Positions 59,616 to 62,877 of a DNA stretch of 64,000 nt are shown one piece after another (within the stretch, counting starts at the first letter, position 1; every line of letters starts with the position of its first letter). The notes beneath the pieces were generated by a model that searched no databases, was not told where the DNA came from, and saw only the letters and a list, made by a program, of their open reading frames with translations. The position numbers and the translations under genes were made by a program. Origin of the DNA: Chloroflexota bacterium (lineage in GTDB: Bacteria > Chloroflexota > Dehalococcoidia > SM23-28-2 > RBG-16-64-32); contig JBBISJ010000010.1 in the NCBI GenBank assembly GCA_037441345.1, forward strand, positions 2,549-66,548, given 5' to 3'.

Positions 59616-60332
59616 CTAGCTCCAGGCCATCCGGCGGAACGACTCCGCCAGCTTCATCCCATGCTCCCGGCCGGCTTCTTCCATGCGGGCCCGCAAGCGC
59701 TTGCGCAGCTCGGCGATGGGGGCTGTGCCGATCTGGCTCCTGTGCTTCTTCAGTGCGGCGATCTTCGTCTTGAAGGCGTCCTCGGGGATTTCGATGTAGT
59801 GGTCGGGGTTCTCCGCGCCGGCGAGGAGCAGCTCCATCACCCGGTGCGGCTCCAGTCCCTCCCGGATGTGCTCAGGGTAGGCCAGGGGGTCGCGCGAGAG
59901 CGGGAAGACGGCGTCGACGGCGGACTGGCCGGTGAGCCGGTGGTCGCGGTGCGTGAACGTGGTGCGGAACGGATTCCAGGTGATGACTGTGTGTGGCTTC
60001 AGGCGCCGCAGCTCATGGACGATCCGCCCGCGCATCTCGGCCGTGTCCTCGACAAAGCCGTCCGGGTAGCGCAGCAGGACCAGCTCCTTTACCCCCAGCA
60101 CGTCGCAGGCGCCCCGCTGCTCCTTCTCCCTGATCTTGCCCAGCCGCTCCCGCGTCATCTCCGGGTCCTTGCTGCCCATATCGCCGCTCGTGGTCAGCAG
60201 GTAATTGACCTCCCAGCCTTCGGCTACCCACTTGGCGACAGTGCCACCGCACAGGAATTCGGCGTCGTCCGGGTGGGCGACGATGACCAGGGCCGTTTTC
60301 GGGTGTTCGTGCTGAGCGTCGAAATGGGTCAT
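59616..60332 (-). CDS. PIG-L/LmbE family deacetylase
   Basis: AHPDDAE, TSGDMG, HRDH, KIAAL..H.SQ, AESF. Start at ATG 60332. Confidence 0.92.
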   Translation of the reverse strand: MTHFDAQHEHPKTALVIVAHPDDAEFLCGGTVAKWVAEGWEVNYLLTTSGDMGSKDPEMTRERLGKIREKEQRGACDVLGVKELVLLRYPDGFVEDTAEMRGRIVHELRRLKPHTVITWNPFRTTFTHRDHRLTGQSAVDAVFPLSRDPLAYPEHIREGLEPHRVMELLLAGAENPDHYIEIPEDAFKTKIAALKKHRSQIGTAPIAELRKRLRARMEEAGREHGMKLAESFRRMAWS

Positions 60333-60396
60333 GGGGGACAGTTTACGGGAACGGGGAGAAGTGCGGCTATTTGGTAATATGACCAACGGAGACTCC

Positions 60397-61614
60397 ATGC
60401 CCCTTCCGCGACAAGTCAGACAGTTCTACTACATCACGCACATGCAGAACCTTCGCTCGATCATGCAGCGAGGCGTCCTGTCTCATCGGAATATCGAATC
60501 CCAGAATATTCCGTTCAAACCCATCTACAATTCTCAAATCGTATCCAACCGCCGTAATCGGACAACTCCTGCGGGGAAGAGCCTCTGGGAGTACGCGAAC
60601 CTTTATTTCCAACCACGCAACGCGATGCTGTTCCAAGTGACACGTACCGTCGGTCCGAGCGAAGTAGCCGTTTTGGCGATCAGTCAGGACATTATGGCGC
60701 AGCCTGGGTCGTTCATCTCGATGGGCAACGCAGCCAGCATGGACTCCGAGATCGTCCCCAGTGGCCATGCAAAGGTGGCTATCAAGGAAATCAGTAAATG
60801 GATCGACAACGAATGGTGGACCGAGGAGGTTGGGCTAAAGCGGAAAATGATGGCGGAACTGCTAGTTCCGTCCGAGGTTGCTGCGGAACACATTCTCTCC
60901 ATCTACGTAGCGACCGACGCCGCACGGGCGGAAGCTCAAACGCTCTTGACGAACGCTGGGGCCTCTAAGACTCCGGTGATACTTGCCCCCGAGATATTCT
61001 TCCTCCCCGCCCGTGTCGAGGTCCTGACCGACCTGCTCTCAGTTGCCGAAGGGGATATGTTCTTCTCTACTATGCAGACCCTCACCATCAGCGTGAACAC
61101 AGTCGGTGTGATGGGAAAGGGACTCGCTTCGCGAGCTAAGTATCAGTTCCCCGACGTCTATGTCCGCTACCAGGATGTATGTCGCGCGAAGAAACTTCGC
61201 ATGGGTCAACCCTACCTGTACAAACGCGAGAGTTCGCTCGATTACCAATTGGCGGTGGAACCCGAAAAATTGCCCAATGGCAACGGAGCGACGTGGTTTC
61301 TGCTATTCGCGACGAAGAGACATTGGCGCGAAGATTCGGACATAGCGGGTATCGAAGAAGGTCTCAACTGGGTGCTGAACAATTACCAGGCCGAGGGGAT
61401 AAAATCCCTTGCCATGCCAGCGCTAGGTTGTGGGCTGGGTAGACTCAAATGGGAGGATGTTGGTCCGTTGATGTGCTCATACCTGTCGCGCATGGAGATC
61501 CCGACTCGAATATATCTGCCTGCTGAAAAGAAGGCCACACAGGAACACATGTCGCCGGAGTTCCTTTTGGCACGTTCGGCTCACAACACGACGACAGAAC
61601 GTCTCGGTGCCTAG
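60397..61614 (+). CDS. DarT-type ssDNA ADP-ribosyltransferase (DUF4433) fused to a DarG-type macrodomain
   Basis: N-terminal: YYITH..NL.SI...GVLS, ANLYFQPRNAML, GNAA, KRKMMAELLV. C-terminal: GDMF, VNTVGVMGKGLA, FATKRHW, MPALGCGLG.L.W. Confidence 0.9.
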   Translation: MPLPRQVRQFYYITHMQNLRSIMQRGVLSHRNIESQNIPFKPIYNSQIVSNRRNRTTPAGKSLWEYANLYFQPRNAMLFQVTRTVGPSEVAVLAISQDIMAQPGSFISMGNAASMDSEIVPSGHAKVAIKEISKWIDNEWWTEEVGLKRKMMAELLVPSEVAAEHILSIYVATDAARAEAQTLLTNAGASKTPVILAPEIFFLPARVEVLTDLLSVAEGDMFFSTMQTLTISVNTVGVMGKGLASRAKYQFPDVYVRYQDVCRAKKLRMGQPYLYKRESSLDYQLAVEPEKLPNGNGATWFLLFATKRHWREDSDIAGIEEGLNWVLNNYQAEGIKSLAMPALGCGLGRLKWEDVGPLMCSYLSRMEIPTRIYLPAEKKATQEHMSPEFLLARSAHNTTTERLGA

Positions 61615-61641
61615 CTCGTCCCTCTGCAAATGGGGGAGGCC

Positions 61642-62877
61642 TTACGCCACGTGTGCGCCGACCGCCACGCCGCGATAGACCGAGACCAGGTCGTGATAGA
61701 CCGTTTCCACCTGCGCGGCGATCTCCGGCCAGCGGAATCGCTCGGCGGCGGCGCGGGCTTCGCGGCCGAGAGTGCGCCGCAGCGACTCGTTGGTCAGGAG
61801 GAGGTCCAGGCGCTCCGCGAAAGGCTCCGGGCAGCGCCACGGCACGAGGTAGCCGGTGCGTCCGTCCTGCACGGTCTCCTTGAGGCCGCCCACGCGCGAG
61901 GCCACGACCGGCACGCCGCAGGCCATGGCTTCCAGGGCGACCAGGCCGAAGCTCTCGTAGTACGACGGGACAACGCAAACGTCGGCGGCGTTGTAGACTC
62001 CGGGCAGCTCAGAATGCGGCACAGCGTCCGCGAACACGACATTGCCGGCAACGCCGATTTCGCGAGCGAGCTTCTGCAGGTCACGTTTGCGGCGCAGGTC
62101 CTTGGCATCGCCGCCGACGACGAGCAACTGGAAGCGGCCCTCCAGGTGCGCCGACGCCCGTATGACGACATCGATCCCCTTGAGCGGCTCGATTCGGCCG
62201 ACGAAGAGCAGCACCGGGATGTCCGGGTCGAGACCCATCAGTTCCTTCGCGCGCCGCCCATCCATCGGCCGGAAATTCAGGGTGTCCACGCCGCAGGGGA
62301 CGATGGAGACGCGGGACGCCGGAACCCCGTACAGCTCACGGAGAAGATCGCGCTCGCCCTCTCCCGCGCAGATGATTCGGTCCGCTCTCTGGGCGACAGC
62401 TCGCTCACCGGCGATGCGGTACCGGGGCTCGCGCTCGCCCGGGTGGTGCCTGTTCTTCGCCTCCGCCAGGGTGTGGAACATGACGACGTGAGGGGCGTCC
62501 CAGCATTCGGCCAGGGTCTGGCCGACCCAACCCGACATCCAGTAGTGGCCGTGGACGAGGTCGTAGCGGCGCGGTGCGAGATCGCGTTCCGCAAAGGCCA
62601 TCACGCCCTGCCGGAACGTCTCCATGTGCCTTCGCAGGGCCCGCTTGTCGGCGGCGAAGGGACCAGCCTCAACCTGGACCACGCGCGTACTGCTGCCGAT
62701 CAGGGTGGCTTCCGGAGTGTCCGCGTCCGTCCGCCGGGTGAAGATGTCGATCGTGTGCCCGCGTCTCTCGAGTTCGCGGCTGAGCTCGCGGACGTAGACG
62801 TTCAGGCCGCCGCTGTCCCGGGTGCCGGGCAGGGCGAGGGGCGAAGTGTGATAGGTAACGACGGCGATGTTACACAT
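61642..62877 (-). CDS. GT4 glycosyltransferase, MshA-like
   Basis: [61 protein letters not shown]. Confidence 0.9.

What the first reader, a model, noticed from the sequence alone, without database searches (positions are those of the whole stretch)
60397..61614. Single-polypeptide DarT-DarG fusion: DNA ADP-ribose writer and eraser in one orphan ORF
Seen: one uninterrupted ORF of about 405 aa. The N-terminal half keeps DarT hallmarks (YITH His, RR, LYF..RN.ML, R..MAE catalytic Glu). The C-terminal half is a DarG-type macrodomain (N.VGVMGKG, F.TK catalytic Lys, PALGCG). It lacks DarG's C-terminal DarT-binding domain and has no separate partner gene. It sits on the opposite strand to both neighbours and is visibly more A/T-rich. 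Known: canonical DarTG is a two-gene toxin-antitoxin pair involved in anti-phage defence and replication control, which works by uncoupling toxin from antitoxin. Inference: a fused form cannot rely on differential turnover, so it needs another switch, such as proteolysis at the linker, a phage-triggered conformational change, or reversible DNA marking. Candidate for a poorly described, horizontally acquired defence or epigenetic module.
Basis: partly seen in the sequence, partly recalled or inferred. Interest (0 to 1): 0.85.

Follow-up and report, generated by a model that had tools for sequence, protein, structure and literature searches.

The report
Natural single-chain DarT–DarG macrodomain fusion
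This is a real gene that joins a DNA ADP-ribose "writer" toxin to its "eraser" in one protein, but it belongs to a large family with a solved crystal structure, so it is a new member of a known kind whose regulation is still unexplained.

Summary
Window 60397-61614 (+) is one uninterrupted 405-aa ORF. It has a full-length DarT domain (Pfam PF14487, E 2.4e-39) and a DarG-type macrodomain, and it lacks DarG's C-terminal half. It is the only DarT, DarG-like or Macro match in the 2.69-Mb genome.

It is a low-GC insert (0.545 against 0.661 for the window), about 1.3 kb long, between two core genes. Four same-genus relatives lack it at that site. Contigs from three studies carry the ORF with no frameshift between the domains.

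The "poorly described" part of the interpretation does not hold:
- PDB 7OMU, titled "Thermosipho africanus DarTG in complex with ADP-ribose" (released 2021), matches residues 7-391 (E 1.3e-128).
- The predicted structure superposes on 7OMU across both domains (TM 0.89/0.95).
- All 119 other proteins listed are 385-433 aa and cover 95-98% of the query.
- One search returned 80 full-length loci from many phyla.

The catalytic Glu154 and Lys307 are invariant in 36 aligned members. No conserved partner gene exists.

Most likely it is a mobile, self-contained DarTG2-like module with an antitoxin that acts in cis. How it is switched on is unknown. Novelty: new member of a known kind. Interest: about 0.35.

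The parts
60397..61614 (+). DarT-macrodomain fusion ORF, 405 aa plus stop codon
   Evidence: start supported
60388..60391 (+). GGAG, a likely ribosome-binding site 5 nt upstream of the ATG
   Evidence: read from the sequence; function inferred
60427..61002 (+). DarT ADP-ribosyltransferase domain (residues 11-202)
   Evidence: Pfam PF14487 E 2.4e-39, profile 1-201 of 201; PADLOC DarT; Foldseek hits to Thermus DarT 7omy/7omv, TMt 0.78-0.80
60550..60552 (+). Arg52 codon. It aligns with chain position 51 of Thermus DarT (7omv) and is invariant in the family
   Evidence: the catalytic role of this Arg is recalled, not tested
60856..60858 (+). Glu154 codon, the predicted catalytic Glu of DarT. It is invariant. 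The aligned position reads Ala in the crystallised 7omu and 7omv chains
61003..61038 (+). Structured inter-domain segment next to the invariant F201/F202 (P..FF motif)
61039..61551 (+). DarG-type macrodomain (residues 215-385)
   Evidence: PADLOC DarG E 1.5e-44, profile 3-155 of 329; PDB 5m31 and 5m3i DarG macrodomains, E 1e-18 and 7e-18; Foldseek TMt 0.85-0.89
61315..61317 (+). Lys307 codon (FATK). It aligns with the TK Lys of the Thermus aquaticus DarG macrodomain and is invariant in the family
   Evidence: K80 is called critical in PMC11543638 (passage)
61552..61611 (+). C-terminal tail. It lies after the conserved YLP.E motif (373-377, inside the macrodomain match) and includes the conserved EFLL motif (invariant L390). 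The last ~13 residues are variable and of low confidence
60331..60347 (.). Left copy of a 17-nt imperfect direct repeat, located at the left edge of the insert
   Evidence: D1; left edge of homology to empty sites at 60333-60346; may be chance
61630..61646 (.). Right copy of the 17-nt imperfect direct repeat (76% identical), located at the right edge of the insert
   Evidence: homology to empty sites resumes at 61642-61644
59616..60332 (-). Flanking core gene, PIG-L family deacetylase. It is not part of the module
   Evidence: adjacent to GT4 in relatives that lack the insert
61642..62877 (-). Flanking core gene, GT4 glycosyltransferase. It is not part of the module

Best explanation
The gene encodes a natural single-chain DarTG of the DarTG2 (thymidine/macrodomain) type. 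An N-terminal DarT domain is joined to a DarG-type macrodomain. DarT is predicted to transfer ADP-ribose from NAD+ onto thymidine in single-stranded DNA. The macrodomain is predicted to remove that mark.

Shown:
- Both domains are present.
- Their key residues (His15, Arg52, Glu154; Gly240-Lys241-Gly242, Lys307) are invariant or nearly so across the family.
- The architecture and inter-domain geometry match the solved Thermosipho africanus DarTG structure.
- No partner gene exists, either in this genome or as a conserved neighbour elsewhere.
- The gene is a horizontally moving single-gene insert under purifying selection.

Inferred:
- The macrodomain acts as a covalently tethered antitoxin at fixed 1:1 stoichiometry and keeps net ADP-ribosylation of the cell's own DNA low.
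- The fused macrodomain replaces the DarT-binding C-terminal domain of two-gene DarG.
- Net DNA modification appears only when the balance is tipped. The trigger could be a phage factor or a conformational change, as in the fused toxin-antitoxin CapRel. It could also be a surge of single-stranded DNA substrate.
- The module would then serve as a mobile defence or addiction-type accessory gene.
For: Domains.

Solved homologue: 7omu_AAA (406 aa) matches residues 7-391, E 1.3e-128. The AlphaFold2 model was made without templates (pLDDT 89.9, pTM 0.86). It superposes on 7omu, 'Thermosipho africanus DarTG in complex with ADP-ribose', at TMq 0.89 / TMt 0.95, rmsd 1.8 Å over 385 columns and 53% identity.

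DarT2-like rather than DarT1-like: the N-terminal half matches Thermus DarT (7omv) at E 2.7e-5 and E. coli C7 DarT1 (8baq) at E 0.035. Foldseek TMt is 0.78-0.80 against 0.59.

Catalytic positions: Arg52 aligns with chain position 51 of 7omv. Glu154 aligns with the Ala of the crystallised mutants. Lys307 aligns with the TK Lys of Taq DarG. In 36 aligned members E154, R52, G240, K241, G242 and K307 are invariant, and H15 is conserved in at least 90%.

Purifying selection: dN/dS against the 94%-identical orthologue is 0.216 overall, 0.264 for the DarT half and 0.179 for the macro half.

No partner: this ORF is the only DarT, DarG-like or Macro match in the genome. Among 1548 flanking ORFs of 80 related loci, the largest homologous cluster occurs in only 4 of 80 loci.

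Mobility:
- GC 0.545 against 0.661.
- Not found at the same site in 4 of 5 same-genus genomes examined.
- Found in 3 of 64 other genomes of the order.
- Synonymous divergence from the G004 orthologue is 0.157, against 0.935 for the adjacent GT4 gene.
- An empty-site contig at depth 252 coexists with a gene-bearing contig at depth 17 in run X3.

Precedents: a fused toxin-antitoxin activated by direct phage-protein binding is cited in 10.1101/2023.12.14.571748 (passage). [quoted passage not shown]
Against: No activity, toxicity or phage test exists for this protein, and I could find none in print for any fused member.

The window's neighbours are housekeeping genes, not defence genes.

Among 130 immediate neighbours of 72 related loci, no PADLOC family matched more than 4 and no Pfam family more than 7. 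Defence-island context is therefore at best a minority pattern.

In related loci the neighbours are mostly co-directional with short gaps: 59 of 71 upstream and 48 of 73 downstream are on the same strand, with median gaps of 90 and 66 bp. That fits an ordinary operon gene as well as it fits a defence cassette.

The protein scores below NCBI's equivalog cut-offs for DarT (86.5 against 150 bits) and DarG (141.2 against 250). Substrate and base specificity could therefore differ from the characterised DarTG2 systems.

No close relative (60% identity or more) was found in the phage or plasmid collections.
Confidence: 0.62

Rival explanations
1. A physiological, reversible DNA-marking enzyme rather than a defence module. 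The fused writer-eraser would keep a dynamic, low steady-state level of ADP-ribose on ssDNA, for example at replication origins or forks. This would tune replication or growth. A similar role has been proposed for mycobacterial DarTG.
For: Both active sites are conserved. A fixed 1:1 stoichiometry suits a steady-state cycle. Neighbours in related loci are mostly co-directional with short gaps, and many are metabolic genes: SIS, amidotransferase, transketolase and amidase families appear in the Pfam tally. This window has no defence neighbours. The DarTG abstract in PMC11543638 mentions control of DNA replication and growth.
Against: The distribution is sporadic: found in 3 of 64 other genomes of the order and 1 of 8 in the genus. 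The site shows presence/absence polymorphism. GC is foreign. Synonymous divergence is far lower than in the flanking gene. These are marks of a dispensable mobile accessory gene, not of a core regulator. One natural population carries an in-frame deletion of the invariant PRN.ML motif.
Confidence: 0.2
2. An ssDNA-gated NAD+-burning futile cycle. Writer and eraser sit on one chain, so abundant target ssDNA such as phage replication intermediates would be modified and demodified repeatedly. NAD+ would be hydrolysed to ADP-ribose and nicotinamide, and infection would be aborted by NAD+ depletion rather than by a lasting DNA lesion.
For: This follows only from the architecture: both catalytic centres are invariant and held in a fixed geometry, and no other regulator gene exists.
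Against: There is no direct evidence. The turnover of characterised DarT enzymes is not known to me to be high enough. A canonical two-gene DarTG would show the same cycle, and that has not been reported in the passages I read.
Confidence: 0.08
3. A permanently neutralised, decaying toxin gene. Fusion locked the toxin to its antidote, and the gene now persists only as selfish or neutral cargo with no function for the host.
For: In runs X3 and X4 the gene-bearing contig has an in-frame 42-nt deletion (60612-60653). It removes residues 73-85, including the invariant R74, N75, M77 and L78.
Against: Catalytic residues of both domains are invariant in 36 members that are 54-65% identical to the query. 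dN/dS is 0.22. The 80 best loci, from many phyla, all carry full-length matches. This is not the pattern of a decaying gene.
Confidence: 0.07
4. Assembly or frameshift artefact that merges two adjacent genes.
For: None was found. The idea is plausible a priori for a MAG.
Against: An independent Logan contig of the probable source run covers 60345-61750 with 0 differences. A contig from a second study bridges the domain junction (60250-61198). A contig from a third study covers 60654-61637 without gaps. All 119 other listed database homologues are 385-433 aa and cover 95-98% of the query. A solved structure of the fused chain exists.
Confidence: 0.01

Closest known systems
Thermosipho africanus DarTG (PDB 7OMU, released 2021-06-23; from recall, deposited with Schuller et al. 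2021, Nature 596:597, a paper I could not open)
   Same: It is also a single chain of about 400 aa with DarT at the N-terminus and a DarG-type macrodomain at the C-terminus. The sequence match covers residues 7-391 (E 1.3e-128). The predicted structure superposes across both domains (TM 0.89/0.95, rmsd 1.8 Å, 53% identity).
   Different: The host phylum differs: a Dehalococcoidia MAG here (closest record title) and a Thermotogota bacterium there. The crystallised chain has Ala at the catalytic Glu position, whereas this protein keeps Glu154. This copy has a 13-residue variable C-terminal extension.
Canonical two-gene DarTG2 (Thermus aquaticus, M. tuberculosis, EPEC; Jankevicius 2016, PMC5179494)
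   Same: The DarT fold and key residues are shared, as are the DarG macrodomain fold and its catalytic Lys. The predicted chemistry is the same: reversible ADP-ribosylation of thymidine in ssDNA.
   Different: This is one gene instead of two. DarG's C-terminal DarT-binding half is absent. The protein scores below NCBIfam's equivalog cut-offs. The DarT half is only distantly similar in sequence to Thermus DarT (E 2.7e-5).
DarTG1 (DarT1 + NADAR antitoxin; PMC11543638)
   Same: It uses the same DarT superfamily toxin paired with an enzymatic antitoxin.
   Different: Its antitoxin is a NADAR domain, not a macrodomain, and its target is guanine. The sequence match to DarT1 (8baq) is marginal (E 0.035) and the structural match is weaker (TMt 0.59).
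CapRel(SJ46)-type fused toxin-antitoxin defence (cited in 10.1101/2023.12.14.571748, passage seen; the name is recalled)
   Same: Toxin and antitoxin sit in one polypeptide, so activation cannot rely on differential turnover. It is a precedent for activation by direct binding of a phage protein.
   Different: The folds and chemistry are unrelated. Its antitoxin part is a non-enzymatic domain, whereas here the antitoxin is an enzyme that reverses the toxin's product.
SirTM / Zn-macrodomain pair (PMC11490716)
   Same: [quoted passage not shown]
   Different: The writer is a sirtuin acting on a protein (GcvH-L), not a DarT acting on DNA.

Membership tests
Fused DarTG family (type: T. africanus DarTG, PDB 7OMU) | Single chain of ~390-400 aa with a full DarT domain followed by a DarG-type macrodomain, alignable end to end | tested here: met
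   phmmer E 1.3e-128, residues 7-391 against chain 23-404. All 119 other listed homologues are 385-433 aa with 95-98% coverage.
Fused DarTG family (type: T. africanus DarTG, PDB 7OMU) | Same relative arrangement of the two domains | tested here: met
   The template-free AF2 model (pTM 0.86) superposes on 7omu at TMq 0.89 / TMt 0.95, rmsd 1.8 Å over 385 columns. This compares a prediction with a crystal structure.
DarT (PF14487 / DarT2-type) | Full-length match to the DarT profile above the curated cut-off | tested here: met
   135.6 bits against a cut-off of 22.5, profile positions 1-201 of 201.
DarT (PF14487 / DarT2-type) | Catalytic Glu (E160 in Thermus DarT) and the conserved Arg and His of the NAD+/base site | tested here: met
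   E154 and R52 are invariant and H15 is conserved in at least 90% of 36 members. R52 and E154 align with the corresponding positions of 7omv. The residue roles are partly recalled.
DarT (NCBIfam NF048013 equivalog) | Score at or above the equivalog cut-off (150 bits) | tested here: not met
   86.5 bits. The protein belongs to a divergent subfamily.
DarG (NCBIfam NF048014 / PADLOC DarG) | N-terminal macrodomain with the catalytic Lys | tested here: met
   PADLOC DarG E 1.5e-44. K307 aligns with the TK Lys of 5m31 and is invariant in the family.
DarG (NCBIfam NF048014 / PADLOC DarG) | C-terminal DarT-binding domain (about the second half of the ~330-aa protein) | tested here: not met
   Only profile positions 3-155 of 329 and 3-158 of 338 are matched. 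The score is 141.2 bits against a cut-off of 250.
DarTG toxin-antitoxin system | Two adjacent genes in one operon | tested here: not met
   There is one ORF, no other DarT, DarG-like or Macro match in the genome, and no conserved neighbour in 80 loci.
DarTG toxin-antitoxin system | The toxin is growth-inhibitory and is neutralised by the antitoxin; ssDNA thymidine ADP-ribosylation is reversed by the macrodomain | not testable with these tools
   This needs expression and biochemical assays.
Anti-phage defence system (PADLOC/DefenseFinder sense) | Enrichment in defence islands | tested here: inconclusive
   The window's neighbours are housekeeping genes. Among 130 neighbours of 72 related loci some are R-M, helicase or AAA_21 genes, but no family exceeds 4 (PADLOC) or 7 (Pfam) of 130. 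No background rate was computed.

The most novel reading that the evidence does not exclude
The fused writer-eraser may not be a neutralised toxin. It may be a single-protein sensor-effector that runs an ssDNA-gated futile cycle. When phage replication floods the cell with target ssDNA, the tethered DarT and macrodomain would add and remove ADP-ribose repeatedly and drain NAD+. This would be a defence mechanism by NAD+ depletion built from a toxin-antitoxin pair.
Probability: 0.08. Interest if true: 0.8.

Novelty: new member of a known kind. Interest (0 to 1): 0.35.

Why it matters
Canonical DarTG is thought to work by separating toxin from antitoxin. A large, conserved family in which the two are welded together at fixed geometry shows that this separation is not required.

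This copy adds natural-history facts that may be useful:
- The module moves as a single gene of about 1.3 kb with no partner or recombinase gene found within the insert or as a conserved neighbour.
- It lands in a variable intergenic site between core genes.
- It has been exchanged between species after they diverged.
- At least one wild population carries an in-frame deletion in the toxin half.

It also matters for annotation. System callers that require two genes are likely to miss it, and NCBI's equivalog models score it below their cut-offs. The biology of the fused form (trigger, role) appears untested in the literature I could search. The family is a ready subject for experiment because a structure already exists.

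Tried and rejected
Literature. I tried to open Schuller et al. 2021 (Nature) by DOI and PubMed id, and LeRoux et al. 2022 by PMC id. None is held. What they say about the fused protein is therefore recalled or unknown. Supplements are closed, and extended data could hold activity tests of the T. africanus fusion.

Searches for a description of natural DarT-macro fusions:
- 'DarT, DarG, fusion': 196 papers, 25 listed.
- 'DarT, Thermosipho africanus': 4 papers, 3 listed, none of them about DarTG by title or abstract start.
- 'DarTG fusion': 0 papers.
- 'DarT, macrodomain, fused, single polypeptide'.
- 'DarT, 7OMU': 0 papers.
- 'DarTG, fused, macrodomain': 30 papers.
- 'DarTG3, DarT3, DarT-Macro...'.

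I read only matching passages in ten papers. None of those passages describes a natural DarT-macrodomain fusion. [quoted passage not shown] This is not proof that nothing is in print.

The scan's earlier findings: no look-alike by sequence. The word search returned only phage AdfM-type macrodomains, which are unrelated to this case.

Expression: no RNA holder was listed among the sequencing runs, so nothing can be said about expression.

Promoter and terminator scan of 60150-61800: one promoter-like and one terminator-like site, both inside the ORF and at chance frequency. It was not informative.

The longer start at 60331 was rejected (see the observation check).

The macro-half-only match in G056 looked like a stand-alone macrodomain, but it is cut by the contig end.

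Phage and plasmid collections: every match was below 60% identity, in 253 phage records and 117 plasmid records. The 8 plasmid matches with at least 80% coverage are annotated as two adjacent genes, and the 7 of them listed are 25.6-27.5% identical. They belong to a different subfamily.

I did not run complex prediction. A pass would only echo the solved structure.
Full report
**1. What is there**

The ORF listing finds one open frame at 60331-61614 (+), 427 aa. The 60397 start is the better one for three reasons:
- Homologues start within a few residues of it.
- GGAG lies 5 nt upstream.
- Related contigs carry 1-nt deletions at 60353 or 60359, which would break a frame opened at 60331.

Domain matches:
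- Pfam matches DarT over the entire profile (residues 11-202, positions 1-201 of 201, E 2.4e-39) and Macro at 306-357.
- PADLOC matches DarG at 215-385, but only to profile positions 3-155 of 329, and DarT at 8-202.
- NCBIfam gives the same picture, below both equivalog cut-offs: DarG 141.2 bits against 250 and DarT 86.5 against 150.

**2. Is it an artefact?**

No. The evidence:
- A Logan contig of the probable source run covers 60345-61750 without a single difference.
- A contig from a second study (about 93% alike) bridges the domain junction (60250-61198).
- A contig from a third study covers 60654-61637 without gaps.
- The orthologue in another MAG of the same genus is 94% identical and open.
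- All 119 other proteins listed by the search for homologous proteins are 385-433 aa and cover 95-98% of the query at 54-66% identity.

**3. It is already a known kind**

The best PDB sequence match is 7omu_AAA, a 406-aa chain, at E 1.3e-128 over residues 7-391. Foldseek gives the entry title as 'Thermosipho africanus DarTG in complex with ADP-ribose', released 2021-06-23.

A template-free AlphaFold2 model of the window protein has pLDDT 89.9 and pTM 0.86. It superposes on 7omu at TM 0.89/0.95 and rmsd 1.8 Å over 385 columns. The match thus extends to the relative placement of the two domains.

The next-best hits are exactly the separate parts:
- Thermus DarT (7omy, 7omv; TMt 0.78-0.80).
- DarG macrodomains of T. 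aquaticus and M. tuberculosis (5m3e, 5m3i, 5m31; TMt 0.85-0.89).
- The M. tuberculosis DarT-DarG complex (7yk3).
- E. coli C7 DarT1 is more distant (8baq, TMt 0.59).

By sequence, the N-terminal half matches Thermus DarT at E 2.7e-5 and DarT1 at E 0.035. I therefore place the protein on the DarTG2 (thymidine/macrodomain) side. From recall, 7OMU was deposited with Schuller et al. 2021 (Nature). I could not open that paper.

**4. Size and spread of the fused family**

- The search for homologous proteins scored 2694 proteins at E ≤ 0.001 among 8000 candidates. The top 120 are all fusion-length.
- In the library clustered at 50% identity, 80 representatives reach E ≤ 1e-30. About 20 of them are full-length fusions of 386-421 aa, and the rest are mostly fragments or single halves.
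- In the one-genome-per-species collection, 403 of 461 candidate stretches encode a relative. That count may include unfused DarG, because both search patterns lie in the macrodomain.
- The best 80 loci all match about residues 5-392. By their record titles they come from Chloroflexota (most), Cyanobacteria, Acidobacteriota, Bacteroidota, Planctomycetota, Ignavibacteria, an Aquificaceae MAG, WOR-3, Sumerlaeota, Omnitrophota, Elusimicrobiota and two archaeal MAGs.
- The nearest record (94%) is titled a Dehalococcoidia MAG, which suggests the host lineage.
- Longer DarT-X-Macro proteins of 441-610 aa also exist: 7 of 7 tested carry both domains.

**5. Both enzymes look alive**

In an alignment of 36 members that are 54-65% identical to the query, many residues are invariant. 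They include R52, E154, F201, F202, G240, K241, G242, T306 and K307, and H15 is conserved in at least 90%.
- R52 aligns with chain position 51 of Thermus DarT.
- E154 aligns with the position that reads Ala in both crystallised chains (7omu and 7omv), which I take to be the engineered catalytic-Glu mutation.
- K307 aligns with the TK lysine of the T. aquaticus DarG macrodomain. PMC11543638 calls that lysine, K80, critical (passage).

Against the 94%-identical orthologue, dN/dS is 0.216. It is 0.264 in the DarT half and 0.179 in the macro half.

**6. No partner**

This ORF is the only match to DarT, to the DarG model and to Pfam Macro in the 2.69-Mb, 97.3%-complete genome.

Across the 80 related loci I collected 1548 flanking ORFs of at least 80 aa within 4 kb and clustered them. 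The largest cluster is present in only 4 of 80 loci and consists of housekeeping genes: GlmS-like and leucine-biosynthesis-like by my reading of the example sequences, without a family search. The module is therefore self-contained.

**7. Context and mobility**

In the window the gene lies between a PIG-L deacetylase gene and a GT4 glycosyltransferase gene, both on the other strand. GNAT, cytochrome c assembly, DinB and CoA-ligase genes lie nearby. This is not a defence island.

Its GC is 0.545 against 0.661 for the window, and its GC3 is 0.652 against 0.854 for the GT4 gene.

The same site in other genomes of the genus:
- Homology to the window breaks at 60333-60346 and resumes at 61642-61644.
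- G001 has 132 bp there and G006 has 65 bp.
- G005 has 317 bp encoding an 82-aa HTH_17 protein.
- G008 has 551 bp with other small ORFs that have no Pfam match.
- G004 has the fusion gene.

Between G000 and G004 the gene is 92-97% identical per 150-nt block, while the flanks are 73-85%. Its dS is 0.157 against 0.935 for the adjacent GT4 gene. The gene was therefore exchanged well after the two lineages split.

In runs X3 and X4 a high-depth contig (252 and 98) joins 60300 to 61646 with 37 other letters between them. This is an empty site. A low-depth contig (17 and 13) carries the gene.

Across the order, 3 of 64 other genomes have a match, one of them cut by a contig end.

A 17-nt imperfect direct repeat (13 of 17 identical) sits at both edges of the insert. 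Ten repeat families of similar size occur in the same 1.4 kb, so this may be chance.

**8. Defence islands?**

I took the nearest ORF of at least 100 aa on each side of the fusion gene in 72 of the 80 loci, which gave 130 proteins. I dropped the neighbours of L086-L093 (14 of 144 references) for the residue limit.

- PADLOC's commonest family matched 4 of 130. Restriction-modification, BREX-helicase, Hachiman-helicase and similar families matched 2-3 each.
- Pfam's commonest were DEAD (7 of 130), ResIII (6) and Radical_SAM (4). Many metabolic families followed.

Some copies therefore sit beside defence genes and many do not. I computed no background rate, so enrichment is untested. Neighbours are mostly on the same strand, 59 of 71 upstream and 48 of 73 downstream, with median gaps of 90 and 66 bp.

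**9. How it most likely works**

Shown: a DarT2-like transferase and a DarG-like glycohydrolase, both with intact catalytic residues, are held in one chain in a conserved geometry. There is no other component.

Inferred: the macrodomain is a cis-acting antitoxin at fixed 1:1 stoichiometry. It takes over both jobs of two-gene DarG, namely enzymatic reversal and (through the covalent tether) proximity or binding. Those two jobs are described in 10.1101/2023.12.14.571748 (passage).

Candidates are a trigger that disables or displaces the macrodomain, or substrate overload. The same preprint cites a fused toxin-antitoxin that is activated when a phage protein binds it.

The connecting segment is predicted with pLDDT 94-96 and carries invariant residues.

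The in-frame 42-nt deletion in the X3/X4 population removes residues 73-85, including the invariant R74, N75, M77 and L78. This would be expected if the DarT half is costly when active. It rests on contigs only.

**10. Rivals**

- A physiological replication or growth regulator. This fits the operon-like contexts but not the sporadic, mobile distribution.
- An ssDNA-gated NAD+-burning futile cycle. It is attractive but has no evidence.
- A neutralised relic. Conservation contradicts it.
- An artefact. This is refuted.

**11. Verdict**

The fusion is real, solitary and horizontally acquired. It is also a member of a large, already catalogued family with a crystal structure, so it is not a new kind.

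How a welded toxin-antitoxin enzyme pair is switched on, and what it is for, remains open as far as my searches reach. I found no passage on this in the papers I could search. I read passages only, and the two key papers were not available.

Noticed in passing
window 60333-61644; L008, L009, L010, L011 (same-genus genomes G001, G005, G006, G008): The intergenic site between the PIG-L gene start and the GT4 gene stop is a variable hot spot in this genus. It is empty in G001 (132 bp) and G006 (65 bp). In G005 it holds 317 bp of low-GC DNA (0.53) encoding an 82-aa HTH_17 (excisionase-type) protein. In G008 it holds 551 bp (GC 0.57) with small ORFs that have no Pfam match. In G000 and G004 it holds the DarT-macro gene.
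   Followed up: partly
window 60612-60653: In runs X3 and X4 (one study) the gene-bearing contig skips these 42 nt in frame. The skip removes residues 73-85 of the DarT domain, including the invariant R74, N75, M77 and L78. This may be a natural toxin-inactivating allele. It is seen in contigs only.
   Followed up: partly
window 60331-60347 and 61630-61646: A 17-nt imperfect direct repeat (13 of 17 identical, sharing ATGGGGGA and TTACG) lies exactly at the two edges of the 1.3-kb insert. It could be a target duplication or an att-like core. It could also be chance, since ten repeat families of similar size occur in the same 1.4 kb.
   Followed up: no
window 60397-61611 against 61645-62877; L014: Between this genome and G004, synonymous divergence is 0.157 in the fusion gene and 0.935 in the adjacent GT4 gene. 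The sharp rise in identity coincides with the gene's ends. The gene was exchanged recently, into the same site.
   Followed up: yes
L077:677-1291 (+), Acidobacteria MAG: A stand-alone 205-aa DarT ORF (PF14487, E 2.5e-31) lies directly upstream of that genome's fusion gene. It is about 28% identical to the query's DarT half. This gives two DarT domains for one macrodomain.
   Followed up: partly
P0163, P0166, P0171, P0179, P0183, P0189, P0248: DarT-Macro proteins of 441-610 aa have 50-180 extra residues between the domains or at the ends. All 7 tested carry both Pfam domains. DarT and the macrodomain have probably been fused in more than one architecture.
   Followed up: partly
H16-H23 (plasmid records): In the 7 listed of 8 plasmid records, a tblastn match of 25.6-27.5% identity covers 85-93% of the query. 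It spans two adjacent annotated genes ('DUF4433/DarT' and a short 'macro domain-containing protein'). H16 and H17 are single aligned pieces. These look like two-gene DarT + short-macro systems that also lack the long DarG C-terminal domain.
   Followed up: no
window 61642-62877 (-): The GT4 neighbour also matches Pfam 'GT4-conflict' (PF20706, 100 bits), but general GT4 families score higher. It stays next to the PIG-L gene in relatives that lack the insert, so I read it as a core gene and not as part of a conflict system.
   Followed up: partly
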